Below, one piece after another: positions 11,288 to 61,249 of a DNA stretch of 64,000 nt. The position numbers and the translations under genes were made by a program. The stretch covers positions 215,106-279,105 of the forward strand of contig DYKG01000001.1 in NCBI GenBank assembly GCA_020722725.1. The letters are read 5' to 3'. Under the pieces are notes generated by a model. That model saw nothing but the letters and a program-made list of their open reading frames with translations. It was not told the DNA's origin and ran no database searches. This DNA comes from Candidatus Methylomirabilis sp. Its GTDB lineage: Bacteria > Muiribacteriota > Ozemobacteria > Ozemobacterales > Ozemobacteraceae. The first letter of the stretch is position 1. Every line of letters starts with the position of its first letter.

Positions 11288-14149
11288 ATGAAACGGGAAA
11301 ACGAATACGGCGGCAGATTGCCAGAAAAACTGGATCTTAACGACTGGATTCAGCATGCTCTTGATTCGGCTGAGGAAAACGACCGGCAGATTGCTCTTGA
11401 AGAGCTTTCATCCACCGGGGTTCCGCCTTATCTGCAAGCCCGTATTCGCGAGATTTCTGCGAGAGATCTTTCTTCGGTCTGCCGGCAGCTGGCTAACTGG
11501 ATAGACAGCGTTGATCGTGCCAGAGCTGAACTGAAGCCACAGCTGAAGAAACTCGAACTAAGCCCGGCAAATATCATAATGCTTCTTGAAAACGCCGAAC
11601 CGGCCATCGCCTCAGTTTTAACTCAAACCTTGCGCAAAGCGCCGGCAGAAGAGATCCTTGAACAATGGCGTATGGGGCTTAAAACCGAAACCAACCCAAG
11701 AATGCTACAGATAGGCCTTACCCTTCTGGGTAAATTTGGTAAGCCCGAAGATGCTTTTTCTGCTCTGCCATTTCTTGATAACTCAGATACCGAAGTAGTT
11801 TGCTCAGCCTTTGCGCTGTTGCAGAACCAGAATCAGGAAATTTTCAAACAGCATATTCGTAAAGGTTTGACTTCCCGTTCCTTCAAGATTCAAATGCATT
11901 CTGTGCATCTGTTGCGCTCTATCGATATCGATGAGGCGATTCAGTATATTCAGGCTTTTCTGTTCAGCAAAAACCCATTGATCAGGCAAAAAGCCCTGCG
12001 TGAACTGATGCTTCTGCCCTTCGAAAGAGTATCAGGTATTTTTCTGCAATACCTAAGTCGCGAGGTTCAGCCGCTTTTGCTGGTAAAGGCCGGCTTTGTA
12101 ATTGCTTTCAATCCGCTGCCTGATTTTCCGGTCAAACTTTTCGACATTTTCCAGTTTGCCCGTGACACCAAAAAACACATCCTGCAAATGGTTTTGAAAC
12201 AGCTGGTTGAATCGATTCAATCTGCCGGAATACTTAAACAGACATTTGAAGAATACTCGGTCGAGTTGAAGCAGAAAATTAGTTTCAAGCGCTCTGAACT
12301 CGTTATCAGATGTGCGCTCAAAGATCTTTCCAGTGAAGACAAAAACATGCGTCTTTCGGCGATCGATCGCCTTGCGCCTTATTCCGAATATCCATCCATT
12401 CTTCAGGCTCTGACCAGGCATTTGCAGACTGAAAAAAACGATGAAGTAAAAACTGCAATTGAGACAATAACCGGTCAGCAGAAACTTGCTCCGGTGCAGT
12501 TGAATAAAGGGTTCCCCGACGTGCGTGCTTTTGTTGCTCTTGATGTGAAAGAGCAGCGAAACTTTTTAAAACAGATTCGAAATGATGAAGACTGGTCTGC
12601 CCGCCGTAATTCTTTTGCTCAACTGCTTCAGGAAAATTTAAAAAAGAACATTCTTCTCGAAATCATTCGTCTTTACGGTAGATTTGGTTCACGAATCGAT
12701 TCACAGCCTTTGCTCAAATTTTTAGAGGATTCAGACCCTTCGGTGGTTGCAGGGGCAATAAAGACCCTTGGTAGTATAGATCTCGATGTGATGCTGCCTC
12801 ATCTTAACCGGTTTCTTGCCCATGAAGACCCGCGAATCAAATCTGCCGCCCTTGAAATCTATGTCCTGGCCGACAAAGAAGGCGCGATTCAGTATTTGTC
12901 ATCGATGCTCAGCTCAAGCGCCCTGAATACCAGAAAAGTCGGTCTGTCTCTGTTGCCGCAGATCGATTACTCTTCAGCCGAACCTTTAATCTGGCGACTG
13001 CTCAAATATGAAGGTAACCAGGAACTGAAAATTCAGGCGGCCTACATGGTTGCTGCCAATCCCACACAGGAAGGCCTTTACAAACTTTTTGCCATTTCCC
13101 ATAAAAAAGAAGGGCAGATGAAAGAAGGCTTTGAGGAATTGTGGAACCTTGCGCTGGTTTCGGCTGAAACAACGTTTGCCATGCCCCGCGACCAGATCGA
13201 GGCTCAATGCTGGGAGGCCTGCAAAGCCGAGGCTGAAAGACCACCAGAAGACAAATCTTCATACTCTTACAACAGCGTTGTGGGCGATTCTGATATTCTT
13301 GGTCTAACAAATCAGGAAGCCAGCTGCACTTTGATCGAAAATGTTTTTCTGCACCTGGCTGAGTTTAAAGTCTTTTATGCCATCGGCGTCGTGATTCTGG
13401 CGCCGTTGATGTATTTTCTGCTCTCATCAGATAATTCGGTTAAAAAAATTGTAAGAAAGAATACTGCCGTGCCTTCTTCTGAAGGGAATTTTTCACCCAA
13501 CGAAACCAATATTACGACCCAGGTCGGAAGTCCTGACTGGAAGGGAGCAATTAAATCAAAGGCCCGTGAAATGCTTTCCGGTGGTGCTTATAAGGCCGCT
13601 CTTGAAACTGCCGCCCGCGAAGTTGAAGACCTGCGCGATGATTATGACAAAAATTTTCAGCAGTATTATCTTGATGTTGTCAACAACCCGGAAGAGCCCG
13701 AAGAGGTCAGAAGCATGTGCGAAGCCCATCTGAATCCATCTTTTGCCAGCGCATTCAAAGCCTGGGAAGCGGGTGATATTTCGGCCGCCGAGCTTTATTT
13801 TGAACGTGCTGTCGAAGATCCGTCACTCAATGCGGTAGGAAAATGTTTCGCGCTGCAGAAGCTTGCCGAACTTGCCGAGTCGAAGCAGGATAAAGCAAAC
13901 TGGCTCAAATGGCAGGATCGGTTACTCAAAGAGTTGAAAAAAATGCCCGGCTACCAGGACGTTAGCGGACTGGAAAACTTTGGCCAGACTTTTATAAAAA
14001 TGGTCGAAATCAGTCAGCATCTTAACAATGGCGGTGATGCGGCACCGATAAAGAACCATCTGATGCAGACCGGCGAAAGTGCTGCTCAGGCACAGGAAAG
14101 TATCGATGCTCTGAAAAACATTGATTCATTTTTCCAAAAAAATCACTGA
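11288..14149 (+). CDS. HEAT-repeat protein with one internal transmembrane helix
   Basis: Repeated HEAT/PBS-lyase-like units (e.g. LEDSDPSVVAGAIKTLGSIDL, AHEDPRIKSAALEIYVLA). One hydrophobic helix (VFYAIGVVILAPLMYFLL) lies near residue 700. Confidence 0.6.
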   Translation: MKRENEYGGRLPEKLDLNDWIQHALDSAEENDRQIALEELSSTGVPPYLQARIREISARDLSSVCRQLANWIDSVDRARAELKPQLKKLELSPANIIMLLENAEPAIASVLTQTLRKAPAEEILEQWRMGLKTETNPRMLQIGLTLLGKFGKPEDAFSALPFLDNSDTEVVCSAFALLQNQNQEIFKQHIRKGLTSRSFKIQMHSVHLLRSIDIDEAIQYIQAFLFSKNPLIRQKALRELMLLPFERVSGIFLQYLSREVQPLLLVKAGFVIAFNPLPDFPVKLFDIFQFARDTKKHILQMVLKQLVESIQSAGILKQTFEEYSVELKQKISFKRSELVIRCALKDLSSEDKNMRLSAIDRLAPYSEYPSILQALTRHLQTEKNDEVKTAIETITGQQKLAPVQLNKGFPDVRAFVALDVKEQRNFLKQIRNDEDWSARRNSFAQLLQENLKKNILLEIIRLYGRFGSRIDSQPLLKFLEDSDPSVVAGAIKTLGSIDLDVMLPHLNRFLAHEDPRIKSAALEIYVLADKEGAIQYLSSMLSSSALNTRKVGLSLLPQIDYSSAEPLIWRLLKYEGNQELKIQAAYMVAANPTQEGLYKLFAISHKKEGQMKEGFEELWNLALVSAETTFAMPRDQIEAQCWEACKAEAERPPEDKSSYSYNSVVGDSDILGLTNQEASCTLIENVFLHLAEFKVFYAIGVVILAPLMYFLLSSDNSVKKIVRKNTAVPSSEGNFSPNETNITTQVGSPDWKGAIKSKAREMLSGGAYKAALETAAREVEDLRDDYDKNFQQYYLDVVNNPEEPEEVRSMCEAHLNPSFASAFKAWEAGDISAAELYFERAVEDPSLNAVGKCFALQKLAELAESKQDKANWLKWQDRLLKELKKMPGYQDVSGLENFGQTFIKMVEISQHLNNGGDAAPIKNHLMQTGESAAQAQESIDALKNIDSFFQKNH

Positions 14150-14179: not shown

Positions 14180-16819
14180 ATGTTCAACAGAACAGGGTAC
14201 AAAACTCTGTTGGTCTGGCGAAATACAATGAGGTATTATGATAATAGTTTGAGGGCGTACAGGGGTAAAAATGTGAATAGAAGAAACATGCGAAAAAGCG
14301 GTTCGGCTTATCTGATGGCGCTCGGGGTTCTGGCTGTACTGGTGCTGATTGGCATCGCACTTTCGCGCATGACCCTGACCGGCCGATGGACAACCATTTT
14401 CAGCAGTAATGAAAAAAAGGCCGAAGAATGTGCCGAGTCGGCAGCTAACTTGACTTTCAAGGTTGTCAAAGACAACATGAACGATTACAGCGCATTCTGG
14501 CGTCTGTTTAACGACCCCGATGAGCTGTTGAAAAGCTGGTTCATGTATTTTCGTCTGCCTGCACCGGTTGCCGGCGCTTATGTTGACCCGGTAAGCTTTG
14601 AAAATGCCAGGGCAAACGGTGTGGATGTTCAGCTCGACCTTTTCAACAGCACGATTTTCAAGCCTTTATATGAAAAGGGTATCGTTTACATGTTCGATAC
14701 CATTTCACCTGATCCCAAGGCCCCCCTGGCACCTCTTAAGGGAATGTTCGACGCTCTTGGTGGCAGGGTCAGGGTTACCTGCACCGCGCGCATAAAAAAT
14801 GCTTTCGCCATTCTTGCCGATAATCCCGATTATGTCGTCGGTGGCGTGGAAGTGCCTTTGCGCAAGGTTACCGGCTTTCTTGGCAATATTTACGACAAGA
14901 TCAAAATCGGTGCTGCTGATGTAATTTCCGGTGATAAAGATTCAACCGACCCAACGGGTGAAGAAGACGCCGGTTTTCCCAACATCGATGTAATCAATTT
15001 TCTTCCCGATGATCCACTCTTGAAGGCTCCCGATATCAGTAATTTCACGATTATCGTGCAGGGAGTTCCGGTTCCGGTTGGCATAATTCTGCAAAAACCC
15101 CTCGATGCTATTTTTAACAAAATCGCCACATCTCTGGGTCTGACACCACGAAAGATTGCTAAAAAACTCTTTGGTGGTGCCCTTCAGTTCAAGATCGACT
15201 TTAGCGCAATCAACAAGCGCATTGAAGAAGCGATTCAGAATTGTCTGCCCAAGTTTCTCCAGGCTTTTGCCGGCAATGCTTCATTCGACATTACCGTTGA
15301 AAAGCAGGGTATCTTTGAAGTGGTTACCGAGGTTGAATACACCCCTAAGTATCCTGATGGTGCGACCATCAAAAAACGACTGGTCATGCAGCGCGAATTC
15401 CGCGTTGCCGATGTTCAGCCTATTGCTTCTGATTACACCTTTTTTGTCGCCAATTCAAAGCTGCTTTATGAAAAGGCTCTGGAAAATTTTGATAACTGGG
15501 GCGGCGATGACGAGATAAAATGGAATGAAGGCATGGGAACCATCGTAATTCACAATATGCCTTCACTTGAAAAAATATGGGATTCCCTGAAAAACATATT
15601 TTCATTTGAAATCAGAAAACTGGCCCAGAATCTTCAATTGCCAGGACTTGTGCGAATAAACGGCACCAAAGAGATGCTTCTTAAACTTACCATGTTCGAA
15701 AAATTTCCGGTAGGAGAAGGGGCTCTTGATGTTTTCAAGAAAATGGAAATAGCCGCTTTGCTGCTATCTCATCCCGATGGGCAGAAAACCGCCTGTGCCG
15801 ACGACCACCCTTCTGGTGGTAGCAGTCATAACATTATCCCCGGTTTGAAAAGTGTTACTTACAACTTCTGGGACAAAGGAAAGCCTTTTGACTGGGGCTA
15901 TTTCGGGGGCGGTGACCCCGGCGGATTGGGAACTTACTGGTTGCCTATTCCACCAATGTTCGCCAGAACCCTGCTTTTCGGCAACTTTCATCTCGAGTTC
16001 CCAATGTCTATGCGGGTAGAAGGCTATCTGAAGAAAGTTTATACGCATATCAAGCTTTTGCTGGTAAAAATTTACATTCCGCCAATTCCCATTATCGGCT
16101 TTCTTGGTATGGATATTCCTATTCCGTGGTTCTGGGCAGCGGCAAAGAAAGAGCCTTACGGGTTCTGCAAATGGCCGCCCTACAAAACAGAAGACGAAGG
16201 CAAAACCGCCTGGGACCCCAATAAAAAGGGAAACCTGCCGGCAAATGTCTATTCGCCGACCCAATATCTCAAAAAAGCCAGCTATTTCTATGCCTCTTCC
16301 CAGGAATTCAATAAAGACATTGAAAACCGCACGATCATTTACAATGGCAAAGAAACCTTCATTTGTGATGGCATTACTTTCGTAAACGACAATCTCTGGA
16401 TAACCAATCCACTGCATGTCATGGGGCGTGGAATAATAGTCGCCGCCGCCAATGTTCATCTCAACGCTGAAATTACCCGCGAAGACAAAGATGACAATGG
16501 CAACAACACGCTTTTTTCGATTGTGGCGCGAAATGGTGCAATCATTAACCATTATGGCAAACGCAGTGTTTCTGCCTGTCTCTATGGCGACAAGGGGCTA
16601 ATGAACCCAATCGGAGCCAGTCTGGATGTACACGGCAATCTCGTGGTCAATCGCTTTAACCGTAAAGACTGCCAGGGCGACCTGCATGTCTATTACGAAT
16701 CGAATCATTGCCGCAGTTCTCTGCTTTCAATGATCAGACCTGTGGCGAAATGGGATCCGACCAGATACTATGTTACCCTGAGTGCCCAGACCGCATTATT
16801 TCAGTTTGAGAAACTATAG
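14180..16819 (+). CDS. Giant GspK/PilX-like minor pseudopilin-like protein (module 1, K-like subunit)
   Basis: After a likely internal start near 14288 the N-terminus reads MRKSGSAYLMALGVLAVLVLIGIALSRMT. That is a GspK-type hydrophobic N-terminus lacking Glu5. The C-terminal half is clearly paralogous to the 42985-44940 protein (PANVYSPTQYLKKASYFYASSQEFNKDIENR vs PANYYSIEQYAKKSNYYYNSEENFLKDLPNR, VMGRGIIVAAANVHL vs VTGRGMIVVSGNVSL, and WDPTRYYVTLS vs YDPRRYYLALS). Confidence 0.5.
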   Translation: MFNRTGYKTLLVWRNTMRYYDNSLRAYRGKNVNRRNMRKSGSAYLMALGVLAVLVLIGIALSRMTLTGRWTTIFSSNEKKAEECAESAANLTFKVVKDNMNDYSAFWRLFNDPDELLKSWFMYFRLPAPVAGAYVDPVSFENARANGVDVQLDLFNSTIFKPLYEKGIVYMFDTISPDPKAPLAPLKGMFDALGGRVRVTCTARIKNAFAILADNPDYVVGGVEVPLRKVTGFLGNIYDKIKIGAADVISGDKDSTDPTGEEDAGFPNIDVINFLPDDPLLKAPDISNFTIIVQGVPVPVGIILQKPLDAIFNKIATSLGLTPRKIAKKLFGGALQFKIDFSAINKRIEEAIQNCLPKFLQAFAGNASFDITVEKQGIFEVVTEVEYTPKYPDGATIKKRLVMQREFRVADVQPIASDYTFFVANSKLLYEKALENFDNWGGDDEIKWNEGMGTIVIHNMPSLEKIWDSLKNIFSFEIRKLAQNLQLPGLVRINGTKEMLLKLTMFEKFPVGEGALDVFKKMEIAALLLSHPDGQKTACADDHPSGGSSHNIIPGLKSVTYNFWDKGKPFDWGYFGGGDPGGLGTYWLPIPPMFARTLLFGNFHLEFPMSMRVEGYLKKVYTHIKLLLVKIYIPPIPIIGFLGMDIPIPWFWAAAKKEPYGFCKWPPYKTEDEGKTAWDPNKKGNLPANVYSPTQYLKKASYFYASSQEFNKDIENRTIIYNGKETFICDGITFVNDNLWITNPLHVMGRGIIVAAANVHLNAEITREDKDDNGNNTLFSIVARNGAIINHYGKRSVSACLYGDKGLMNPIGASLDVHGNLVVNRFNRKDCQGDLHVYYESNHCRSSLLSMIRPVAKWDPTRYYVTLSAQTALFQFEKL

Positions 16820-16827
16820 GAGCAGTC

Positions 16828-17295
16828 ATGTCGAGAAGAGCAGTCACCCTGGTAGAGATAACTCTTGCTCTTGCCATTTTGATAATAGCGATTATTCCCT
16901 TGTTGAGAATGTCCTCTGATGATGCTGCCACCGCCATCGAAACCGAGAAAATTCAAATTGCTGAACGTATTCTTGAAAGCGTTAAAAGCGAATTATTCGC
17001 CCTGCCGTTCAAACGTTTTTATGAAAGAAGTGAAGCCGATGAAGCCGATGGAGAAGATAAGAATTTTGCCGGCCCATTTGAGCTTTCCGATGGGTTCTAC
17101 CCGATCAGCCTTGGCAAAGTTCTTGAAATTCAACAGAAATTCAAGGACTTCAAGGTTGTTGGCAGCTGGAGCTACCTTATGAAAGATGGAAAAATTGATA
17201 AAACCATGGTTCAGGCAGATGTTTCATGCTCTTTCAGCCGTGCCAGGGGCTCTGAAGTTCTGCGCAAAAAGTCCTTTTTGCTGGTTAAACCATGA
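16828..17295 (+). CDS. GspI-like type IV pilin-fold minor pseudopilin (module 1)
   Basis: A GGAG Shine-Dalgarno precedes the start. N-terminal MSRRAVTLVEITLALAILIIAIIPLL looks like a class III (prepilin) signal with Glu at +5. The size (155 aa) is GspI-like. Confidence 0.6.
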   Translation: MSRRAVTLVEITLALAILIIAIIPLLRMSSDDAATAIETEKIQIAERILESVKSELFALPFKRFYERSEADEADGEDKNFAGPFELSDGFYPISLGKVLEIQQKFKDFKVVGSWSYLMKDGKIDKTMVQADVSCSFSRARGSEVLRKKSFLLVKP

Positions 17296-17312
17296 ATAAT
17301 GGAGGAATAGAT

Positions 17313-18386
17313 ATGAAAAAATCTGGTGTTACTCTGGTTGAAATGATGGTAGCAACCTTCATTCTTTCTCTGATATCTGTTCCTCTTTACTACGTGTTGA
17401 AGCAGGCTCAGCATCGTGCTGCTCTGGCAGCCTGTAAAGACTATGTAAAACAGGAATCAAATAAAGTTTTGAAAATTGTTGAGCATGATCTGAGCCAGGC
17501 CCGCCGTGAAAGCTTCAGGCAGCCAAGCGATGATGTATTTGAAATCAAGGTTAAAAAACAGGGTGACGATAAAGATGTGTCTCTGCGTTATCTTTATATT
17601 AAACCAGATTTAAAAAGAATTTTTGATGGCAAGCAATGGCTGGTCAGCAATAATGTCGATGAATTCAATATTTCCACGACCCCGGATGCCCCGGGCAGGC
17701 TGGTTGTCAGCCTTAAAACCAAAGCAAATTTTGATGGAATCAGGGAAGAAGATGCCCCGGTTCTGTCACAGGAAAAACTGGTGGTTATGCGTGAAGATGC
17801 CGCTTTTGAAAAAGATGAACATTGGCGCGATGTTGGCGATGTGAATAAATTTTTTGCATCACAGGGCAGTCTGATGGGTGGAATCAAGGAAGATGCGGGC
17901 AAACTGGTTCAGGATTTCGCCAGCGAATGGAGCGCAGCGGCCGGTGATATTCAGAACATGACAATTGGCCAGCTTAAAAAGGTTAAAGATGACCTTTTCA
18001 ATGGCCTCAAAGACGTTGAAGACAGTATCAACAACCTTGATAAAGATATTCTCGATCTTGACCCGAAAGCGATGTTTGATGTCGGCTGCGATGGTAAACT
18101 TTCAGATTCTCAGAAAGAACGAGCCAAAGCGGTTAAAAATGCTCTGGCAAATATGAAAAACAAAGGCGATTTGAGTTGGCAGAAAGTGGTTGACTCTGGT
18201 GGCGGTGGCTTTTTTTCCTCAAAAATGAAAACCGGAGCAATTAAGGAATTTTACAATGCCAAGGCACAGCTTTTTAACTCTGGGCAGGAAGTCGTAAAAC
18301 AAATCGACAGTTTCAAAAAGATGTCGAGTGAAAAGGGCTTTGATTTCGATATCAGTCAGATCAATCGCGGCAAGTGGGGCCTTTAA
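17313..18386 (+). CDS. GspJ-like minor pseudopilin with long acidic C-terminal extension (module 1)
   Basis: A GGAGGA Shine-Dalgarno lies before ATG 17313. N-terminal MKKSGVTLVEMMVATFILSLISVPL looks like a prepilin signal with Glu+5. A pilin-sized domain of ~170 aa is followed by ~190 aa of D/E/K-rich sequence. Confidence 0.55.
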   Translation: MKKSGVTLVEMMVATFILSLISVPLYYVLKQAQHRAALAACKDYVKQESNKVLKIVEHDLSQARRESFRQPSDDVFEIKVKKQGDDKDVSLRYLYIKPDLKRIFDGKQWLVSNNVDEFNISTTPDAPGRLVVSLKTKANFDGIREEDAPVLSQEKLVVMREDAAFEKDEHWRDVGDVNKFFASQGSLMGGIKEDAGKLVQDFASEWSAAAGDIQNMTIGQLKKVKDDLFNGLKDVEDSINNLDKDILDLDPKAMFDVGCDGKLSDSQKERAKAVKNALANMKNKGDLSWQKVVDSGGGGFFSSKMKTGAIKEFYNAKAQLFNSGQEVVKQIDSFKKMSSEKGFDFDISQINRGKWGL

Positions 18387-19011
18387 GTCGCAGGCTCAGC
18401 CAGACCACCCAGAAAGCCGTCAGAAAAATGGTAAGCTTCTGAAACCATGGCAAAATTTCCTTGTGCCAGTTCAGATAGTAAATCAGGTTGCTGCCCTGAA
18501 TCATGATAAAAACGGTAATTCCTGCCGAAAAACCAGGATATTGGCGTGCCTCGGCCAGAATTATCAGTGCAGTCAAAATGGTTAGAAAAGTGAAAATGCT
18601 GAAGCCAAGCAGCATTACGTGGTGGTAACCAGTAAAAAGAAGGCATGCGAATGTGCTGGCAATTAGCGAGCAGAACCTTACAATCATCTGCTGACCTTTG
18701 GTGGTGGGGCAATAGACCGGCAGAGAATAAAAAAATGCCGACATAGAAATCCCTAGAAAGCACATGCCGATTGCAGCAAAAGGCATACCTGGGTTAGGCT
18801 GGCCGTTCGCGGCTTGAGAGTTGAGAAGCTCGCACCAGTAATTATGCTGCCAGCTGAAGCCTGCAGTGTTCGGGTCGATCTGGGTTCCGCCCGGATAAAG
18901 CAGAATCGCAACAAATGAAAGTACAAAAAACCAGAAAGCCGCAAATGTCGGTAAATACTTGAAAAAGCGGTTGCCTGGCTTTTTTTCCGGTTCAGGATTT
19001 TGCAGATTCAA
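18361..19011 (-). CDS. Hypothetical polytopic membrane protein (216 aa)
   Basis: About six hydrophobic helices. Its 3' end overlaps the end of the convergent pilin gene by ~25 nt. Confidence 0.4.
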   Translation of the reverse strand: MNLQNPEPEKKPGNRFFKYLPTFAAFWFFVLSFVAILLYPGGTQIDPNTAGFSWQHNYWCELLNSQAANGQPNPGMPFAAIGMCFLGISMSAFFYSLPVYCPTTKGQQMIVRFCSLIASTFACLLFTGYHHVMLLGFSIFTFLTILTALIILAEARQYPGFSAGITVFIMIQGSNLIYYLNWHKEILPWFQKLTIFLTAFWVVWLSLRLKGPTCRD

Positions 19012-19618: not shown

Positions 19619-19838
19619 TTTAATTCTCCAATTTAAAGCCTTTCCTGGCCGCCATCAGCATAAAGAAAACTCAATGGGAAAAGCATGATAAACACAAATA
19701 CCAGAAACTTTTTCATCGTAAAATCCCCTTGGAACTATTCAGGCAATATACCGGACAAACTGAATTTGTTCAATTCAAAATTTTATTGGAATTGCCCGGC
19801 AGGGAAAATTTGAAAGGCGGGTTCATTAATGCTACAAT

Positions 19839-37821: not shown

Positions 37822-39027
37822 TTAAGGCTGGCTCCGTAAAATTCTGATCAGATTCAGCCAGATTTTTTGTGATAATGTTTGATTGGCCGTCTGCAGCAGT
37901 TTAATCTGCTGCAGACCTTTTTCATTGTTCATTTTTGCCATGATCAATGCTGAAATTGCCGCGCAATCGGGTCGGCTGGCCTGACTTTCGGTCTGTTGCC
38001 ATTGCAGCATTGAATTGAGAACGGGCTGAATCTGTTGATCGGAAATTTGACCAAAGTAGGGTAGTCCCAGCAAAATAACCAGGTTTTGGCTAAACGGCAT
38101 TGCCAGATCGATTTTGAATCGTTGGTCTAGATGAATCAATCGTTGTCTTAGCTCTTCATCAGGTATTTCTGAGTTTATTGCAGTCTGATGGTAATAAAGA
38201 GCCGCAATAATCATGGATTCGAAAAGAGCAGAAGTTACTTTTCCTAAAAAAAGCGGTCTGAAGAAAAAATCCGATTTCATGTCGTTTTCCTCATCTGTCC
38301 AGCCTGATAACAGGCGTTTTAATCGCTGTAGATTTACAATCAAGCGCCGGTCGAAACGGAGCAGTAGCGAAAAAACCGCTCCGGCACAAAGACTGGTTGT
38401 GATTTTTCCATAATCAGGCTGCTCGGGAAAGAAAAAACTGCCGTCCAGGTTTTGCATAGCAGTAAGGCTTTCGCCGATTTTTTCAATTTCCTCCAGCGGA
38501 ATCCCGATTCCTTTTTTGTCGGCTTCGTTTATCGAAATTGCAAGAGGCAGCAGGGTGTGGCATGAAAAACATCGGTTTTTTTCATGAAACTGTAAAATAT
38601 CGCGGGATTGCTGGAAAAGTTCGAGCTCAGTTCTTCTAATTTCTGCATTTCTTGCTTCAAAGTAAGCCGGGTTGTCGCCTTGTTTTTCGGTCGCTTCGAG
38701 AAAAACCGGCGTCAAAAATGCTTCCCGGCAGATCTGGTGATCGAGCTTAAAGGTTAAAAAAGCTTCGCCGGGTTTTGCCGAGGCAATGAAACTCTGATCG
38801 TTGATTCTCAGGGTTGCGGCCCGGCATGCCATATTTCGACCCCATACAGAGGTTGAAATTACTGGTATTTTTACCAGGCTGACAGCGATATCTTCAGAAA
38901 ACCTGATTTTAATCTTTTCTCCATCATGGCTGAAAAAGGCCGGCCATTCTTTTGCCGGTGCCGATAAAGCAAGGCAAAGCATGAGAAGCACTGAAAAAAA
39001 GGTTTTAATCTTCTTTGCTGATGCCAT
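37822..39027 (-). CDS. Secreted hypothetical protein (401 aa)
   Basis: Signal peptide (LLMLCLALSAPAKE). No assignable motif. Confidence 0.4.
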   Translation of the reverse strand: MASAKKIKTFFSVLLMLCLALSAPAKEWPAFFSHDGEKIKIRFSEDIAVSLVKIPVISTSVWGRNMACRAATLRINDQSFIASAKPGEAFLTFKLDHQICREAFLTPVFLEATEKQGDNPAYFEARNAEIRRTELELFQQSRDILQFHEKNRCFSCHTLLPLAISINEADKKGIGIPLEEIEKIGESLTAMQNLDGSFFFPEQPDYGKITTSLCAGAVFSLLLRFDRRLIVNLQRLKRLLSGWTDEENDMKSDFFFRPLFLGKVTSALFESMIIAALYYHQTAINSEIPDEELRQRLIHLDQRFKIDLAMPFSQNLVILLGLPYFGQISDQQIQPVLNSMLQWQQTESQASRPDCAAISALIMAKMNNEKGLQQIKLLQTANQTLSQKIWLNLIRILRSQP

Positions 39028-40351
39028 ATTTTTTCAGCTTGTAATGAAGATTCTGCCTGGTAATACCAAGGCTTGAGGCAGCTTTTGAATAATTCCATCC
39101 CGCCGTATCGAGAGCTTGCAGAATGATATTTTCTTCAATTTTATTGATAGTCTCCTGCAAAGGCATATTGGCCAGGTTGTCATGAATAAACGAACTGTTG
39201 TTATTGCTTTCGCCTGCCGGAAGATTGAGGTCGGAGGCCTCAAGCTGCCCTGAACGTTTCATGATAACGGCTCTTTCTATGCAGTTTTCCAGTTGACGAA
39301 TATTTCCCGGCCATTCATAAGCGGCAAGCAGGTCAAAGAATTCTTTGCTGCCCTGATTAATCATACGGCCATGTCGGCGGGAAAATCTGTCGATAAAATG
39401 TTCTGCCAGCTCGCGGATATCTTCTTTTCTTTTTCGCAGCGGTGGTATCAGGATTTCGACGATATTGATTCGATAAAGCAGATCTTCTCTGAAATTGCCG
39501 GCTTTAACCTCTTCTTTCAAATTCTTGTTTGAGGCTGCAATAATTCTTACGTCAGCTTTTATACTGATATTCGCACCAACCGGCCTGAAAATTCCGTCTT
39601 GCAGCACTCTAAGGAGTTTGGCCTGGTTGGGAAGGGTAAGGTCGCCGATTTCATCGAGAAACAGGGTGCCACACTCGGCGTCGGCAAAAATTCCAGGTTT
39701 GTCTGCAATTGCACCGGTAAAACTGCCGCGTTTGTGGCCAAACATTTCGCTTTCAAAAAGGCTTTCAGGAATAGCACTGCAGTTAACCGGCACGAACGGC
39801 AGGTTCGCTCTTTTGGAACTGCGGTGAATGGCATGGGCCACCAGTTCTTTTCCGGTTCCCGATTCGCCGCTGATTAAAACAGTGCTGTCTGTGTCTGAAA
39901 TATTTTCAATTATTCGTTTTACATCTTTTATGCCGGGGGAAATGCCAATAAGAACCTGAACGTTTTCCGGTGCTTCATCAGGCTCAAAAGTCCTTTGCAG
40001 GGCCTTCTTTATGGCACTTCGGAAATCTTCAAGCTCAAAGGGTTTTAGAAGATAGTCTATCGCCCCTAATTTTACAGCGGTTACTGCAGTTTCGACCGAA
40101 GAAAATGCGGTCATCAGAATGCACGGTGGTGTTTTTTGCTTCAGACCTTTAATGTGTTTAAGCAATTCCATGCCGCTCATTCCGCTCATACGAATATCAG
40201 ACACCACCAGATCAACCGGTCGTTTTTGCAGAAATTCAAGGGCTGAAATCGGGCTGGGAAAATCGAAAACTTCATATCCATCATTTTCAAGTGATTTTTT
40301 AAGTGCTTTCAACAGTTTGATTTCGTCATCAACTAATACTATTTTATGCAT
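39005..40351 (-). CDS. Sigma-54-dependent response regulator (NtrC/PilR family: REC + AAA+ sigma-54 activator + Fis-type HTH)
   Basis: REC domain (VLVDDE...D), GESGTGKE Walker A, a GAFTGA-like GSFTGA motif, and a C-terminal HTH (AASSLGITRQNLHYKLKKYGI). Confidence 0.9.
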   Translation of the reverse strand: MHKIVLVDDEIKLLKALKKSLENDGYEVFDFPSPISALEFLQKRPVDLVVSDIRMSGMSGMELLKHIKGLKQKTPPCILMTAFSSVETAVTAVKLGAIDYLLKPFELEDFRSAIKKALQRTFEPDEAPENVQVLIGISPGIKDVKRIIENISDTDSTVLISGESGTGKELVAHAIHRSSKRANLPFVPVNCSAIPESLFESEMFGHKRGSFTGAIADKPGIFADAECGTLFLDEIGDLTLPNQAKLLRVLQDGIFRPVGANISIKADVRIIAASNKNLKEEVKAGNFREDLLYRINIVEILIPPLRKRKEDIRELAEHFIDRFSRRHGRMINQGSKEFFDLLAAYEWPGNIRQLENCIERAVIMKRSGQLEASDLNLPAGESNNNSSFIHDNLANMPLQETINKIEENIILQALDTAGWNYSKAASSLGITRQNLHYKLKKYGISKED

Positions 40352-42023
40352 TATCCTGTTCCCCGATGTTTGAATTTTGCTGAATCAGCGGCATCATTAT
40401 CAAAAACTCTGTGGTGCCATTTTTGCGGCTGGCAGAAATTTTTCCCGAATGTCCCTCGATTATTGCCTGGCAAATGATCAACCCCAGACCTGTGCCTTGT
40501 GGTTTGGTGGTAGAAAGAGGCTCGAAAACCAGTTCAGGTTCGCATTCAAATCCTGATCCGAAGTCTATGAAGCTTATTTCACAATGATCAGAAAGAGCCC
40601 GGGCAGAAATTGCAAGATGTGCATTCTTTAGGTCGTGCATGGCTTCAGCTGCATTTCTGGTGAGATTGTAGAATACCTGCTGCATCGCCTCGATGTCGAT
40701 CTTTATCTGTCCTTCACCATCGATGTTAAGGTCAATCTCAAGAAGAGAAAACTCTGAGTTCTGTCTGACAAATTCAAACAGAGATTTAACCGCATCGGTA
40801 AAATTCATTGTTGTAAGATGTGGTCTGGCCTTTGAAGTATAAGTTCTTAAAGTGCTGATAATGTTTTTGCACCGTTTGACTTCGGCAATGATTTCTTCAA
40901 TTTCTTCGGCACTGACCTCCTGACCTTTTTGCAACGCTTCTTTAAGCAGGCCGGCATTGGCTAGAATGGTGCCAAGCGGGTTATTTATTTCATGGGCTAT
41001 ACCTGCCGAAAACCGGCCGAGAGCTGCAAGTTTGTCTTTCTTGGCAAGCTCTTTCTGCACTTCGATCAGTCGGTTCTGAGCAATTGAAAGTTCTTTAACC
41101 ATACGGTTGAAACTTCGGGCAACCGATTCTATTTCTACACCGCTGTTAACCATTGGTGGCTGATCGAGAGGAATTTCCTTCCAGTTGCCCTGCGCAACTT
41201 TTTCGATGCCCTGCCCCAGAGCCTGCAAGGGTAGAAACAGGCGGCGGCCCAGAAAATACCCAAGAATAAGCAGTCCGATGACTTGCAAAATCGTCAGTCT
41301 GATCATCAGATTATCGATATCCAGCCGCGAGATAATCGTGCGCTGTGCCGGATACCCGGTCAGTAGTTTCATATCATCTGAGATGTTGAATGCGCGAACC
41401 CTGAAAATTTCGCCGCCGCTTCTTATTTCTCCAGAAAGGTTTTCTCCAATAAGTTTTTGCAAAAACTGCAGATCCTGCGAAAACTCTCGCTGGTCAAATA
41501 TTCCAAAAGCATCGAAAAAACAGAACATAGGTACTGCTGATCTTGATAAATCGGGCCGGCGCGCAATAAAAAGCCGAGTGTTGCTGGCAATCTCACTCTC
41601 AGAAAGAATATAGCCCTGATAAGAATAAGGCCCGGAGCGACTCAAGCGGCAAATTGAACCCGTCGACCGGCGAGGCTTCGGCAGACTACCACTGAGCAGA
41701 GGTGCATCATTAACGAAAATATCCAGCCAATCGATGTTCATGCTGCTTTTGATGCTTTCGCTTATTCTCTGCTGCTCGACCGGGGTTTTGTTGAGCATGT
41801 CAAGATTGCGAAAAGCGGTCGCCAGTTCGTCGGCAGTTCGATCCAATGATGTCTGTTCAAGTTTGAGCACGGTAGTAAGCTGGTTTTTCAGTGAAACCAG
41901 CTTCTCATAATCCGAGCTGTCGATAGACAAGCCAAGACTCTGGGCCGCCCAGAACGAGACCGATGAAATAATTACCACGGTCAATAGAACAAAGCCCATC
42001 GTTATTTTTATTCTAATCCCCAT
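40344..42023 (-). CDS. Sensor histidine kinase (two transmembrane helices, HAMP-like, HisKA, HATPase_c)
   Basis: H-box FSAGIAHEINNPL and a G1/G2 ATP-lid (GSGF..GTGLGL). It overlaps the response-regulator gene by 8 nt. Confidence 0.85.
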   Translation of the reverse strand: MGIRIKITMGFVLLTVVIISSVSFWAAQSLGLSIDSSDYEKLVSLKNQLTTVLKLEQTSLDRTADELATAFRNLDMLNKTPVEQQRISESIKSSMNIDWLDIFVNDAPLLSGSLPKPRRSTGSICRLSRSGPYSYQGYILSESEIASNTRLFIARRPDLSRSAVPMFCFFDAFGIFDQREFSQDLQFLQKLIGENLSGEIRSGGEIFRVRAFNISDDMKLLTGYPAQRTIISRLDIDNLMIRLTILQVIGLLILGYFLGRRLFLPLQALGQGIEKVAQGNWKEIPLDQPPMVNSGVEIESVARSFNRMVKELSIAQNRLIEVQKELAKKDKLAALGRFSAGIAHEINNPLGTILANAGLLKEALQKGQEVSAEEIEEIIAEVKRCKNIISTLRTYTSKARPHLTTMNFTDAVKSLFEFVRQNSEFSLLEIDLNIDGEGQIKIDIEAMQQVFYNLTRNAAEAMHDLKNAHLAISARALSDHCEISFIDFGSGFECEPELVFEPLSTTKPQGTGLGLIICQAIIEGHSGKISASRKNGTTEFLIMMPLIQQNSNIGEQDNA

Positions 42024-42158: not shown

Positions 42159-42971
42159 GTGCAAAAAGAGATCAAAGAGTTCTTCTCTGAACTTGACCTG
42201 AGTGATTTCAGGTTGATGTTTGTCGGCATGTTGCTTTTGCTGTTACCCCTCGCATATCTCTACCGGGTGACCGGTTCTTCGCCTGACCAGCAGCAGCAAA
42301 GAAGATATGCCACCAATGTCAGCAGGCAGTCGGCTTTTAACCTTGCCCCTGGCAAGAACAGCCTTCTATCTTCACCGGAAGCAAAAAAGCAATCTTTCAG
42401 CGTTAGCCCCCGGGTTGAAAAAATAGATTCAGAACTTGATCGAGCCTGGGCAAAAATACAAGCCACCCCAAGAGCCCGCAACATTCCTTCCGATGTTCCC
42501 CCTGAAACCCGGCAGATGATCGAAGCTGAAGATCACGAATTTCTTACCGAGGGCAATACCCTTCTCGACAGCGGAGATTTTGTGGCCGCTGAAACTGCTT
42601 TTGAGAAGGCAATCAAGAGTTCAGGGGGCAATCCTTTTGTTGAGCTTTATGCCTGGGGCGGCCTCATGGAAGCTTATGAAAAGACGGGAAACGTCATAAA
42701 ATTTCGCGAAGCATTTTCCAATTATGTCAAAAAAGCTCAGGAACTCAAGCACGTTTATGGGCCGCTGGCAGATAACATCGCACGGGCTCAGCAGATGTTC
42801 GAGCAACTGGCTCAGGCTGATCCAGCGAAGATCAGAGAGCATCTGCTCAAGCACAATCTCGCCAATAAGTCCAATATTACTTATGATCAGCTTTCTCGAC
42901 AAAGTACTTCGCGCCCTTTTTCATCGTATTCTCGACAAACCCCAGTTCTATCCGATCAAGATCTTTTTTGA
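42159..42971 (+). CDS. Membrane-anchored TPR-like hypothetical protein (GTG start)
   Basis: N-terminal transmembrane helix FRLMFVGMLLLLLPLAYLY, then a helical TPR-like region. It sits immediately upstream of pilin module 2. Confidence 0.4.
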   Translation: MQKEIKEFFSELDLSDFRLMFVGMLLLLLPLAYLYRVTGSSPDQQQQRRYATNVSRQSAFNLAPGKNSLLSSPEAKKQSFSVSPRVEKIDSELDRAWAKIQATPRARNIPSDVPPETRQMIEAEDHEFLTEGNTLLDSGDFVAAETAFEKAIKSSGGNPFVELYAWGGLMEAYEKTGNVIKFREAFSNYVKKAQELKHVYGPLADNIARAQQMFEQLAQADPAKIREHLLKHNLANKSNITYDQLSRQSTSRPFSSYSRQTPVLSDQDLF

Positions 42972-42984
42972 CAAAGATTTTTTT

Positions 42985-44940
42985 ATGCAGGCGGCAGACC
43001 TTTGGCCTGCTGGAGTTAAAGTTCCGGCAGACCACAGCCGTTATGTCGAAAAGTACGGAACTCTGAAAGTCACATCAATTGCACGTATTAATTTCAATGA
43101 TGGAACTTTCTCAGAGCGGCGCATTGATGCAACCAAGGATTTCAAAGTCTCTGATACCGAGCCGATGGCACCTTTATACAGTTTCTTCTGTGCCAATACT
43201 ACCAATGACCGAATAAATTTTAATGATAACGGTGGTCAGTTTTATGTTAACAACAGTTCGGGTCGATTACTCAGCCGTGAAGAACGCGAAACCCGCAAAG
43301 AACTCGCCGGTCAGATCAGGGTTAATTTCAAACCTGAAGATTACGTCGACGAGTCAACGCCGGGCACCCCGCTGGTAATAAACACTTCTCTCATGGGTCA
43401 TTATGATGGCCCCAAGCTTACTGAAAGCGAATTCGGTAACCGGGCGGTCAATCTTTCGGCGGGAACCGATGGTCTTATAATGCTTGGCCGAACCAAGACC
43501 ATGATTATTTCAAAAGCTTCTTACAATATTGATACCACTATCAATTCCAAAAATGTAAACACCAAAAAGGGAAGTCCGCTGCCCAGGGAACTGAAATTCT
43601 CACGTGGTCCGGTGCGACATGGTTTTCAGCTTTCATCAACAGCCCTTCCAAATGTTAAATGGCTGGCGCGAGATGCGGAATATCAGAAGAATCGCAAACA
43701 ATATCAGAGCAGCGCTTTAAAACAGCGCAACGATTCTTACCAGTGGTGGGCGCAGGATCCCCACAAAATGAAGCATGAAGATTATCTTAAGAAAAAGGCG
43801 GAAAGCATAAATTTCCTTCCCGATCCTGAAAAAATCAGTTCAAATATCATCCTTTTCGGGATAAGCATGGCAATTCGCGGAATGGGAAAATCAATCACTA
43901 TTCCACCTGCCGGAACGGTAACTTTTGGTTCCACCCCTCCGGTTGATGCTTTCGCCCGCATGATGCTGCCATGGATGGGCACGCGAAACAGCTATTATTG
44001 CCTGCCTTCACTAGGCTGGGGCCAGAACAAGACCCATCTATTCGGCAATTTCGCCTGGTATCCAACGCTTTCGCGTGATATCGAAGGCATGGTGGCCAAA
44101 CGCTATCGCCAGTGGCATGTAACCATAATCGGCCTGTTTGCCAAAGACCGTTTTCCTTTGTTGCCTTTCCCGCCGCCCTGGTGTTTCGTTCCGCCAATAC
44201 CGGTGCCTTTCTGGTTTGCCGACCAGATCATCAACAAATATGATTACAACATGTTTTTCATGAAAGCCTATGATCCTGATGACGACGCGGCAGACGGCAG
44301 TCTGTCGATGTATGACCCCGATTATATGATGAATATGCCGGCCAACTATTATTCGATCGAACAATACGCCAAGAAATCAAATTATTATTACAATAGCGAA
44401 GAAAATTTTCTCAAAGATCTACCAAACCGCATGATCGATATTGACGGCAAAAGGGCTTTGCAACTTAACGGGGTAACCTTCATTGCAGGATCTCCGGGCG
44501 CAGACAGCAGGCCTTTCGTTCCTCCCGAGGGCGGCGATACTTTCTACGTCACCGGCCGAGGCATGATCGTTGTTTCCGGTAATGTAAGTCTGGGTTGTAA
44601 CATTAAATGTATCGATGAACCTGAGAGAAGAACGATTTTCAGTCTGGTTGTGCGAAATGGCGGCCTGATTGTAACCAATAACGGCAACTTCTTTTTTGAA
44701 GGCTCTCTCTATACTAATCGCGGTTTGTATGTTGGTTCAAATACTAATTTGAATATTCAGGGAAACTGGGTCACCAACGAATTTGCCAAGCATCGAATGC
44801 GTGGCGAGGTCATGATTGATTACGTCGCTTCGCGAGTTAGATCTTCCCTCGGAAGTCTGCACCCGGTAACTGGAAAATACGACCCGCGCCGCTATTATCT
44901 TGCCCTGTCGCCGCGCTGGAACGCCTGGAAGGTTGATTGA
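42985..44940 (+). CDS. Giant GspK-like minor pseudopilin-like protein, paralog of 14180-16819 (module 2); start uncertain
   Basis: The C-terminal 400 aa are clearly paralogous to the module 1 K-like protein (shared LFGNF, PANxYSxxQYxKKxxYxYxSxExFxKDxxNR, GRGxIVxxxNVxL and YDPRRYY motifs). The long ORF begins at 42724 and overlaps the upstream gene. The first ATG after that gene's stop is 42985, and it has no Shine-Dalgarno. Confidence 0.5.
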   Translation: MQAADLWPAGVKVPADHSRYVEKYGTLKVTSIARINFNDGTFSERRIDATKDFKVSDTEPMAPLYSFFCANTTNDRINFNDNGGQFYVNNSSGRLLSREERETRKELAGQIRVNFKPEDYVDESTPGTPLVINTSLMGHYDGPKLTESEFGNRAVNLSAGTDGLIMLGRTKTMIISKASYNIDTTINSKNVNTKKGSPLPRELKFSRGPVRHGFQLSSTALPNVKWLARDAEYQKNRKQYQSSALKQRNDSYQWWAQDPHKMKHEDYLKKKAESINFLPDPEKISSNIILFGISMAIRGMGKSITIPPAGTVTFGSTPPVDAFARMMLPWMGTRNSYYCLPSLGWGQNKTHLFGNFAWYPTLSRDIEGMVAKRYRQWHVTIIGLFAKDRFPLLPFPPPWCFVPPIPVPFWFADQIINKYDYNMFFMKAYDPDDDAADGSLSMYDPDYMMNMPANYYSIEQYAKKSNYYYNSEENFLKDLPNRMIDIDGKRALQLNGVTFIAGSPGADSRPFVPPEGGDTFYVTGRGMIVVSGNVSLGCNIKCIDEPERRTIFSLVVRNGGLIVTNNGNFFFEGSLYTNRGLYVGSNTNLNIQGNWVTNEFAKHRMRGEVMIDYVASRVRSSLGSLHPVTGKYDPRRYYLALSPRWNAWKVD

Positions 44941-44941
44941 T

Positions 44942-45409
44942 ATGAGAAGTGGTTGGTCGCTGGTTGAAGTTCTTATTGCTGCCGGAGTTATAGTCATTGC
45001 ATTCATTCCGCTGGTAAATCTGGTCAGCACAAATGCGGTTTCAACTGCTAAGATGGGCTATTACTCGATGGCTTCAGGAGTCCTTACCAAATTCATGGAA
45101 GAAGTTAAGCATGTGCCGTTCAGCCGTTATCAGACTGAGTGTCCCGAGTTGTCAGGCGGCACACCAATAAAAGTGCCCGAAAAATTTTTTCCTGACACCA
45201 TCGCAAGTTTGAATGAGTTGAAAAAAGACAAGGAATTCTGGCTTGAGCACTCGATGAAAGCCGCGAAAAATGAATACGGGCAACTGGTTGAAATCGCTTT
45301 TACCTGTGAAATCAGATGGCATGAAAAGGGTGATAAATCTGCCACCGGTCAGGAAGAAAGAAAACTGCGTGATTATGCGCTGATCTTTAATCCTGAATCA
45401 CGCTACTAA
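44942..45409 (+). CDS. GspI-like minor pseudopilin (module 2)
   Basis: ATG 44942 lies 2 nt after the upstream stop. N-terminal MRSGWSLVEVLIAAGVIVIAFIPLV looks like a prepilin signal with Glu+5, and the protein is 155 aa. Confidence 0.55.
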   Translation: MRSGWSLVEVLIAAGVIVIAFIPLVNLVSTNAVSTAKMGYYSMASGVLTKFMEEVKHVPFSRYQTECPELSGGTPIKVPEKFFPDTIASLNELKKDKEFWLEHSMKAAKNEYGQLVEIAFTCEIRWHEKGDKSATGQEERKLRDYALIFNPESRY

Positions 45410-46945: not shown

Positions 46946-46959
46946 GCTTTGCCATTTCT

Positions 46960-61239: not shown

Positions 61240-61249
61240 TCCGCTTCTC

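What the first reader, a model, noticed from the sequence alone, without database searches (positions are those of the whole stretch)
17313..18386. GspJ-like pilins carrying long acidic coiled-coil C-terminal extensions (both modules)
The third gene of each module (17313-18386, 357 aa; 45431-46945, 504 aa) has a pilin-sized N-domain followed by 190-310 aa of D/E/K-rich, predicted helical sequence. Examples are DEADKAAEEMVKDNDSSFFSD and LNDLEKTQEVNLADAKKGLDEIEKQIKK. Minor pseudopilins are normally compact. A long charged helical extension on a pilus-tip subunit could reach beyond the filament or bind cations or partners. The extensions differ in length and sequence between the paralogs, which suggests diversifying evolution.
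Basis: seen in the sequence. Interest (0 to 1): 0.55.

Follow-up and report, generated by a model that had tools for sequence, protein, structure and literature searches.

The report
GspJ-fold pilins with helical-bundle tails
Two paralogous minor pilins in a Riflebacteria genome each carry a conserved, folded all-helical domain after a GspJ-type pilin domain, which makes them an undescribed variant of the known "modular pilin" design, not disordered or fast-evolving tails.

Summary
Genes 17313-18386 (357 aa) and 45431-46945 (504 aa) are intact ORFs. Each has a prepilin signal peptide, a pilin domain of 160-182 aa and a helical tail of 197 or 322 aa.

The tails are not artefacts. There are 41 and 30 homologues, and 23 species-level genomes, all Riflebacteria, carry the 357-aa type as one ORF in the same gene order.

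The tails are not diversifying. Their length is nearly fixed within each orthologue group, their identity is close to that of the pilin domain, and dN/dS is 0.03-0.05.

Only the 504-aa tail is acidic (net -29). The 357-aa tail is about neutral (-4).

AlphaFold2 predicts compact three- and four-helix bundles, not one long coiled coil.

Each gene ends a four-gene module that is specific to the phylum: a TM/TPR-like protein, a giant GspK-position protein, a GspI-like pilin and this GspJ-fold pilin. A third paralogous module in a relative has a compact 208-aa GspJ-like pilin, and another relative has an 881-aa version.

Best reading: these are modular minor pilins that sit in a pilus or pseudopilus tip complex and display or dock a helical module. 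That function is inferred. No assembly machinery was found in the DNA I hold.

The parts
17313..18386 (+). 357-aa modular minor pilin of module A. Leader MKKSG (17313-17327). GspJ-fold pilin module, residues 6-160 (17328-17792). Most conserved junction motif, residues 161-205 (17793-17927; ...REDAxxExDxHWRDVGDVNKFFATQGS...). Helical three-helix-bundle-like module, residues 206-357 (17928-18383), ending in a conserved KWGL.
45431..46945 (+). 504-aa modular minor pilin of module B. Leader MPAKNKG. GspJ-fold pilin module, residues 1-182 (45431-45976). Acidic multi-helix module, residues 183-504 (45977-46942), with a terminal helix of 52 residues.
16828..17295 (+). 155-aa small pilin of module A (MSRRA|VTLVE), GspI-like.
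   Evidence: Class III signal motif. TIGR01707 gspI 20 bits, below the 44.35 cutoff. Syntenic in all loci. Paralogue of 44942-45409.
14180..16819 (+). Giant protein of module A. The ORF is 879 aa; the likely start is near 14288, giving about 843 aa. It has a hydrophobic pilin-like N-terminus without Glu+5 (MRKSGSAYLMALGVLAVLVLIG). It sits in the GspK/PilX position.
   Evidence: ORF. No Pfam or NCBIfam family. 56 homologues, none given a functional name by any source and the taxon-labelled ones Riflebacteria. It is the most conserved gene of the module, 57-97% identity across the loci (74-89% in most full-length matches). Its 'K-like' nature is inferred from position and N-terminus only.
11288..14149 (+). 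953-aa HEAT-repeat protein, the first gene of module A. It has an internal hydrophobic segment, and its C-terminal region is homologous to the TPR protein of module B.
   Evidence: HEAT_2 1.7e-20. BLASTP against 42159-42971, E 3e-6. Syntenic where the contig reaches it, in 19 of the 23 loci of the genome scan; not detected upstream in L023 and L024.
42159..42971 (+). 270-aa TM/TPR protein, the first gene of module B. Its last ~25 codons are out-of-frame read-through, because 951 bp present in relatives is missing here.
   Evidence: TPR_19 3.6e-5. tblastn and blastn against L002 and L003.
42892..44940 (+). Giant protein of module B, 5'-truncated in this window. It corresponds to residues 279-959 of the intact 959-961-aa orthologues and lacks the hydrophobic N-terminus.
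   Evidence: Paralogue of the module A giant protein, E 1e-33.
44942..45409 (+). 155-aa small pilin of module B (MRSG|WSLVE), GspI/PilV-like.
   Evidence: Class III motif. Weak gspI and PilV matches. Paralogue of 16828-17295, E 7e-12.
39005..42023 (-). Histidine kinase (40344-42023) and sigma-54-type response regulator (39005-40351), divergent from module B. A candidate regulator only.
   Evidence: ORFs. Same arrangement with Pfam domains in L002 and L003. No sigma-54 promoter found.

Best explanation
Both genes encode modular minor pilins. A prepilin-type signal peptide and a GspJ-fold pilin module are followed, through a highly conserved acidic junction motif, by a folded all-alpha module. 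That module is a bundle of about three helices in the 357-aa protein and a larger, acidic multi-helix bundle in the 504-aa protein.

Each gene is the last in a four-gene module specific to Riflebacteria: a TM/TPR-like protein, a giant protein with a pilin-like N-terminus lacking Glu5, a small GspI-like pilin, and this GspJ-like pilin.

By analogy with GspI-J-K and PilV-W-X, the three pilin-like products would be cut by a prepilin peptidase and form the priming or tip complex of a type 4 filament. In that complex the bulky helical module can only be placed at the tip. There it would either bind a ligand or dock onto the giant subunit.

Paralogous modules with tails of about 25, 197, 322 and about 690 aa would give alternative tips.

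Shown: the gene structure, the signal motif, the fold, the conservation and the synteny. Inferred: processing, incorporation into a filament, tip location and the role of the tail.
For: - Class III signal with invariant Glu+5. N_methyl above its cutoff for the 357-aa protein.
- I-like and K-position genes lie directly upstream, separated by 8-31 bp. All three gene pairs are paralogous between the two modules, as are the first genes.
- The tails are ordered in the models, apart from the junction and a few loops.
- The tails are amphipathic-helical and under strong purifying selection, and they are about as conserved as the pilin domains.
- An exhaustive profile search with the tail alone found 28 cluster representatives among 1.84 billion. 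The complete proteins with confident matches all have the tail starting at residue ~160-195 of a pilin-sized N-domain; the rest are short fragments or two weak matches.
- Gene order is the same in 23 species-level genomes.
- A compact 208-aa paralogue ends inside the junction motif. An 881-aa variant occupies the same gene position.
- The modular-pilin concept, with tip placement, is established for PilB, CofB, ComZ and GspK (PMC8179133).
Against: - No T2SS or T4P assembly gene (ATPase, platform, prepilin peptidase, secretin) and no major pilin lies in the 64-kb window. A crude motif scan found none next to the modules in 534 kb of related DNA.
- Sequence scores against GspJ, GspI and GspK families are all below threshold or absent.
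- The giant protein's fold was not tested.
- The most conserved stretch, the junction at residues 162-203, is modelled with pLDDT below 50, and pTM is only 0.41-0.47, so the arrangement of the domains is unknown.
- In this window the giant gene of module B lacks its 5' end. If that is real, module B may not work here.
Confidence: 0.6

Rival explanations
1. The proteins are membrane-anchored scaffold or sensor proteins outside the cytoplasm, and they are never polymerised. The pilin-like N-terminal helix would serve only as an inner-membrane anchor. The helical bundle would work in the periplasm, for example as a ligand-sensing four-helix bundle or as a spacer, together with the TM/TPR and giant proteins.
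For: - No filament machinery or major pilin lies near any module.
- The first gene of each module is a TM protein with solenoid repeats.
- A two-component system lies next to module B.
Against: - The invariant Glu+5 and the Gly/Ala at -1 are features selected for prepilin processing and filament assembly.
- The co-occurrence of I-, J- and K-type partners mirrors known tip complexes.
Confidence: 0.2
2. The tails would be long, acidic, extended coiled coils or disordered segments that reach beyond the filament, bind cations and evolve under diversifying selection.
For: - The 504-aa tail is strongly acidic in every family member, net -15 to -48.
- Tail length differs among paralogous modules: about 25, 197, 322 and about 690 aa.
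- The tails of the two window paralogues are barely alignable on their own: hhalign 23.5% probability.
Against: - dN/dS is 0.029 and 0.051.
- Length is nearly fixed within orthologue groups.
- The tails contain many invariant residues.
- The 357-aa tail is not acidic.
- The models give folded bundles with pLDDT 70-90, not disorder or one long rod.
- No 3.5-residue periodicity shows over the whole tail.
Confidence: 0.05
3. The tails are an annotation or assembly artefact: a missed stop, a frameshift, or a fusion of a pilin gene with a separate downstream gene.
For: The window does carry one structural oddity nearby, a 951-bp gap relative to close relatives at 42893/42894. Assembly errors are therefore conceivable in this MAG-like sequence.
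Against: - Single uninterrupted ORFs of the same length occur in 71 homologous clusters and in 23 independent genomes.
- Synonymous divergence far exceeds non-synonymous divergence across the junction and the tail.
- The junction is the most conserved part of the protein.
Confidence: 0.01

Closest known systems
T2SS minor pseudopilin GspJ (XcpW, EpsJ; PDB 3nje, 2ret, 3ci0_J) within the GspI-GspJ-GspK tip complex
   Same: - Prepilin signal with Glu+5.
- Encoded next to a small I-like pilin and a large subunit that lacks Glu5.
   Different: - Sequence is below the family cutoffs: TIGR01711 scores 30 bits against 64.85 for one protein and gives no hit for the other, and there is no Pfam T2SSJ hit.
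- A C-terminal helical module of 197-322 aa is absent from GspJ.
- Gene order is giant-I-J, not H-I-J-K.
- The large subunit is 843-961 aa, against about 330 aa for GspK (from my own knowledge).
- No T2SS core genes lie nearby.
T4aP minor pilins PilV-PilW-PilX (+PilY1) and Thermus thermophilus TTHA1219 (PDB 5g23)
   Same: - A set of minor pilins plus one very large partner forms a priming or tip complex.
- In Pseudomonas the minor-pilin operon is under two-component control (from my own knowledge). Here a two-component system is adjacent to module B.
   Different: - There are no PilW or PilX family matches.
- The large partner here itself has a pilin-like N-terminus.
- The helical tail has no counterpart.
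Modular type IV pilins (S. sanguinis PilB and PilC; CofB; ComZ; GspK), as defined in PMC8179133
   Same: - A pilin module carries an extra grafted module and is expected to sit at the filament tip.
- As in CofB, ComZ and GspK, the extra module has no database signature.
   Different: - The described C-terminally grafted modules are vWA, lectin, beta-repeat/beta-sandwich or beta-solenoid. GspK carries an alpha-domain, but it is inserted within the pilin beta-sheet.
- Here the module is an all-alpha bundle appended C-terminally to a GspJ-type pilin.
- It comes in a paralogue series of different lengths confined to one phylum.
Verru_Chthon cassette proteins A-D (TIGR02596-TIGR02600)
   Same: A multi-gene cassette of prepilin-like proteins that includes a very large member and occurs in several copies per genome.
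   Different: Only weak matches to the N-terminus: E 0.019 for protein C and E 0.1 for protein B, far below the cutoffs. These proteins are not members.

Membership tests
Type IV pilin / pseudopilin superfamily (class III signal peptide) | Short basic leader, Gly/Ala at -1, hydrophobic alpha1N with Glu at +5 (PF07963 / TIGR02532) | tested here: met
   MKKSG|VTLVE and NKG|ATLIE, with Glu+5 invariant in 30 and 29 aligned sequences. PF07963 scores 26.3 bits against a cutoff of 21.2 for the 357-aa protein, and 18.0 bits (below the cutoff) for the 504-aa protein. TIGR02532 scores 17.9 against 16.3.
Type IV pilin / pseudopilin superfamily (class III signal peptide) | Pilin fold: a long N-terminal helix packed on an antiparallel beta-sheet | tested here: met
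   [not shown]
Type IV pilin / pseudopilin superfamily (class III signal peptide) | Processing by a prepilin peptidase and assembly by a type 4 filament machine | not testable with these tools
   No such genes lie in the window. A crude motif scan of 534 kb was negative. The rest of the genome is not available.
GspJ (TIGR01711 / Pfam T2SSJ) | Sequence score above the curated family cutoff | tested here: not met
   TIGR01711 scores 30.1 bits against a cutoff of 64.85 (residues 5-82 only) for the 357-aa protein and gives no hit for the 504-aa protein. No Pfam T2SSJ hit at E<=1.
GspJ (TIGR01711 / Pfam T2SSJ) | GspJ-type three-dimensional fold | tested here: met
   [not shown]
GspJ (TIGR01711 / Pfam T2SSJ) | Encoded within a T2SS gsp operon, with GspI and GspK partners | tested here: inconclusive
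   An I-like pilin and a giant protein lacking Glu5 are adjacent. There is no gsp operon, and the giant protein matches no GspK model.
Modular pilins (PMC8179133) | An N-terminal pilin module plus a distinct extra module joined to its C-terminus | tested here: met
   The models give two parts: a pilin domain, then helical bundles after residue ~160 or ~182. A compact 208-aa paralogue ends at the junction.
Modular pilins (PMC8179133) | The extra module is a recognisable functional domain not specific to pilus biology | tested here: not met
   No Pfam, NCBIfam or PDB sequence match for the tails. This is the same situation as for CofB, ComZ and GspK, as discussed.
Coiled coil | Sustained heptad (3.5-residue) periodicity over long uninterrupted helices | tested here: inconclusive
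   Over the whole tail the peak is at 3.6, not 3.5. Local windows cannot separate 3.5 from 3.6. Helices are mostly ~15-33 residues (up to 52 in the 504-aa tail) and fold back into bundles resembling spectrin repeats and three- or four-helix bundles. No dedicated coiled-coil predictor was available.

The most novel reading that the evidence does not exclude
The four-gene units would be interchangeable tip cassettes specific to the phylum. In this reading the helical tail of the GspJ-fold pilin is the effector. It would be an amphipathic bundle, distantly resembling AhlB/Hbl-type alpha-pore-forming toxin components and four-helix-bundle sensors, that is carried to a target surface on the tip of a type 4 filament and there opens, inserts or binds. 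Tail length (about 25 to 690 aa) would set reach or specificity.
Probability: 0.07. Interest if true: 0.8.

Novelty: new variant of a known kind. Interest (0 to 1): 0.4.

Why it matters
How minor pilins give type 4 filaments their many functions is an open question, and modular pilins are one established answer. Here the grafted module is an all-alpha bundle on a GspJ-type subunit. It occurs in a graded series of paralogues (208, 357, 504 and 881 aa) inside a conserved four-gene module. The module is found only in Riflebacteria, a phylum noted for the highest density of unknown gene families (PMC10849945).

If the proteins do sit at a filament tip, they give a natural series for asking what a tip module does and how much bulk the GspI-J-K-type cap can carry. 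The practical value is modest until the assembly machinery and a phenotype are known.

Tried and rejected
- Profile searches of both families against PDB sequences found no relative. The giant protein also found none.
- Pfam and NCBIfam gave no family for the tails or the giant proteins.
- I looked for a sigma-54 promoter between the two-component system and module B. Matches to TGGCAC-N5-TTGC are at the chance level (76 observed against 73 expected) and none lies in that spacer. The spacer aligned across three genomes shows no conserved -24/-12 element.
- Sigma-70 and terminator scans were at background.
- Literature searches for pilins or type IV pili in Riflebacteria found nothing relevant.
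- A motif scan for the GspE/PilB Walker A, the prepilin peptidase and the secretin signature in all 534 kb held was negative. It is crude.
- The register bookkeeping in my first heptad scan was faulty, so I use only its scores and shuffle comparison, not the registers.
- An hhalign of the two tails alone is only suggestive (23.5%, 47 columns). I do not claim that the tails are homologous.

Full report
**What is there**

The window carries two ORFs on the + strand exactly as described: 17313-18386 (357 aa) and 45431-46945 (504 aa). Each ATG lies 6-8 nt after a GGAGGA Shine-Dalgarno sequence.

Both proteins open with a prepilin (class III) signal: MKKSG|VTLVE and MPAKNKG|ATLIE. A scan of all six frames finds only four such N-termini in the 64 kb: these two genes and the 155-aa genes directly upstream of each. 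Pfam N_methyl passes its cutoff for the 357-aa protein (26.3 against 21.2 bits). It is just below the cutoff for the 504-aa protein (18.0 bits).

Homologue names place the window in Candidatus Riflebacteria (Rifleibacteriota).

**Pilin domain**

AlphaFold2 models were built on alignments of 30 and 29 sequences (mean pLDDT 74 and 77). They give a long N-terminal helix followed by a beta-sheet, at residues 1-160 and 1-182.

By sequence the link is weak. TIGR01711 gspJ scores 30.1 bits against a cutoff of 64.85 for one protein and nothing for the other, and there is no Pfam T2SSJ hit. So 'GspJ-like' is right as a statement about fold. Membership of the GspJ sequence family is not met.

**Tails**

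After the last strand, both models are almost entirely helical.
- 357-aa protein: helices 182-211, 218-247, 265-279 and 307-339.
- 504-aa protein: nine main helices between residues 183 and 502, the last one 52 residues long.

The structural neighbours of the tails are generic helical bundles.

Hydrophobic periodicity in 35-residue windows peaks near 3.6 residues, with z 7.5 and 4.0 against shuffles. Over the whole tail the 3.5-residue signal is at background. I therefore call the tails amphipathic helical bundles. An extended coiled coil is not shown.

Charge differs between the two tails. The 504-aa tail has net charge -29 and 23.8% D+E, and every family member is acidic (-15 to -48). The 357-aa tail has net charge -4, with a family median of -2. 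Both example peptides quoted in the finding come from the 504-aa protein.

**Real genes under constraint**

The word-indexed search found 41 homologues of the 357-aa protein, 37 of them 340-363 aa long. It found 30 homologues of the 504-aa protein, 28 of them 497-512 aa long. All that carry a taxon label are Riflebacteria or likely mis-binned.

A scan of one genome per GTDB species found 23 loci. None is assigned to another phylum except one labelled Erysipelotrichia, which is likely mis-binned. Each holds a single ORF, cut only where a contig ends.

Mean pairwise identity:

| Family | Region | Identity |
|---|---|---|
| 357 aa | tail | 0.53 |
| 357 aa | pilin domain | 0.57 |
| 357 aa | junction, residues 161-205 | 0.69 |
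| 504 aa | tail | 0.56 |
| 504 aa | pilin domain | 0.65 |

The junction (...REDAxxExDxHWRDVGDVNKFFATQGS...) is the most conserved part of the 357-aa protein.

Against close relatives, the tails show dN/dS of 0.029 (dS 0.51) and 0.051 (dS 0.28). That is the same as or lower than in the pilin domains. This rules out a frameshift or fusion artefact and argues against diversifying selection within orthologues.

An exhaustive HMMER search with a tail-only profile found only 28 cluster representatives among 1.84 billion proteins. In the complete proteins with confident matches, the tail begins at residue ~160-195 of a pilin-sized N-domain; the remaining matches are short fragments or two weak hits. 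The tail is a private module of this pilin family.

**Context: a four-gene module in several paralogous copies**

Upstream of the 357-aa gene lie three genes:
- a 155-aa pilin (weak gspI match);
- an ORF of 843-879 aa with a hydrophobic pilin-like N-terminus that lacks Glu5;
- a 953-aa HEAT-repeat protein.

Upstream of the 504-aa gene lie their counterparts. All are paralogous between the two modules:

| Gene pair | Evidence |
|---|---|
| giant proteins | E 1e-33 |
| small pilins | E 7e-12 |
| long pilins | hhalign 98.8%, E 1e-16 |
| first genes (C-terminus of the HEAT protein against the 270-aa TPR protein) | E 3e-6 |

The homology signal between the long pilins sits in the pilin domain. The tails alone align only weakly: 23.5% probability over 47 columns at the same relative position.

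The giant-small-long gene order is identical in all 23 species loci where the contig allows. The HEAT gene precedes it in 19 of them and was not detected in L023 and L024. The giant protein is the most conserved member, at 57-97% identity across the loci. It has no Pfam family. All 56 of its homologues are unnamed, and those that carry a taxon label are Riflebacteria.

The 5.2-Mb Ozemobacteraceae genome has a third module (278, 845, 150 and 208 aa). Its GspJ-like pilin is compact and stops about 25 residues after the last strand, inside the junction motif (...IIAIRQVETKEGHKDWKQRIDG...). Another relative has, at the module A position, an 881-aa version with a K/E/A-rich helical tail of about 690 aa.

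Tail length therefore varies between paralogues and deep lineages, and it is fixed within orthologue groups.

**Mechanism**

A small pilin with Glu5, a GspJ-fold pilin with Glu5 and a large subunit without Glu5 mirror GspI-GspJ-GspK of type II secretion and PilV-PilW-PilX of type IVa pili. In those systems the minor pilins form the complex that primes assembly and caps the filament. This rests on established knowledge of those families and on PMC8179133.

A pilin that carries a folded extra module of 20-35 kDa fits the 'modular pilin' design. Such a pilin is expected to sit at the tip. I infer that the helical module either binds an external ligand or packs against the giant subunit.

The invariant acidic junction is modelled with low confidence (pLDDT below 50 at residues 162-203) even though it is the most conserved stretch. 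It looks like an interface, or possibly a metal site, that needs a partner. This is inference.

**What weakens the mechanism**

- No assembly ATPase, platform protein, prepilin peptidase, secretin or major pilin is in the window.
- A crude motif scan found none next to any module in the 534 kb I hold.
- A non-filament role as a membrane-anchored periplasmic scaffold or sensor remains possible.

**Comparison and novelty**

The closest known things are GspJ-family pseudopilins (by fold and gene neighbourhood) and modular pilins (by architecture). The described C-terminally grafted modules are vWA, lectin, beta-sandwich or beta-solenoid domains. GspK has an inserted alpha-domain.

A C-terminal all-alpha bundle on a GspJ-type pilin, in a graded paralogue series confined to one phylum, has not been described as far as I could find. 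I rate it a new variant of a known kind. It is of moderate interest.

Noticed in passing
window 42893/42894 (between 42159-42971 and 42892-44940): Compared with two relatives (L003, 89-92% DNA identity, and L002), 951 bp is missing here. The gap removes the last ~33 codons of the TPR gene, the spacer and the first ~279 codons of the module B giant gene, including its pilin-like hydrophobic N-terminus. Relatives encode 959-961 aa; here only residues 279-959 remain. There is no long direct repeat at the junction. I cannot tell whether this is a real deletion or an assembly artefact.
   Followed up: yes
window 39005-42023 (- strand), and 37822-39027: A HAMP/HisKA histidine kinase, a sigma-54-activator response regulator and an unknown 401-aa gene are transcribed divergently from module B. 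The arrangement is conserved in L002 and L003. It recalls two-component control of pilin operons, but no sigma-54 promoter was found in the spacer.
   Followed up: partly
L027 9165-13597 (OZ223236.1-type 5.2-Mb genome): A third paralogous module (278, 845, 150 and 208 aa). Its GspJ-like pilin is compact and ends within the junction motif, which gives the ancestral-looking, tail-less state.
   Followed up: yes
L028 4025-12646: The same HEAT-giant-small-long gene order, but the long pilin is 881 aa. Its K/E/A-rich helical tail of about 690 aa has faint apolipoprotein-like matches. Two SpoIIE-domain genes follow.
   Followed up: partly
window 18372-18383 (C-terminus of the 357-aa protein): The extreme C-terminus ...(K/T)WG(L/M) is conserved in nearly all full-length homologues (G356 is >=90% conserved). 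It could be an interaction or sorting motif. One divergent homologue (P0040, 455 aa) continues past it with an acidic extension of about 100 aa.
   Followed up: no
L002 16783-17553 (- strand) and neighbours 14837-21533: A further pilin-like gene (256 aa, N_methyl 20.8 bits) sits in a cluster of unknown genes next to a protein of more than 1470 aa, a few kb downstream of module B in a relative. Riflebacteria seem to hold many pilin-like gene sets.
   Followed up: partly
window 46946-46968 vs L003 9516-10576: The close relative L003 has an extra 300-aa gene on the - strand between the 504-aa pilin gene and the PMT_2 glycosyltransferase gene. The window lacks it.
   Followed up: no
window 59279-63016 and 31433-32569: Three consecutive SPFH/Band 7 genes (356, 297 and 588 aa) lie on the - strand. 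A fourth SPFH gene, fused to a GYF_2 domain, lies elsewhere in the window.
   Followed up: no
window 18361-19011 (- strand): A 216-aa hydrophobic ORF with a TTG start overlaps the last 26 nt of the 357-aa pilin gene in convergent orientation. Its true start and status were not checked.
   Followed up: no
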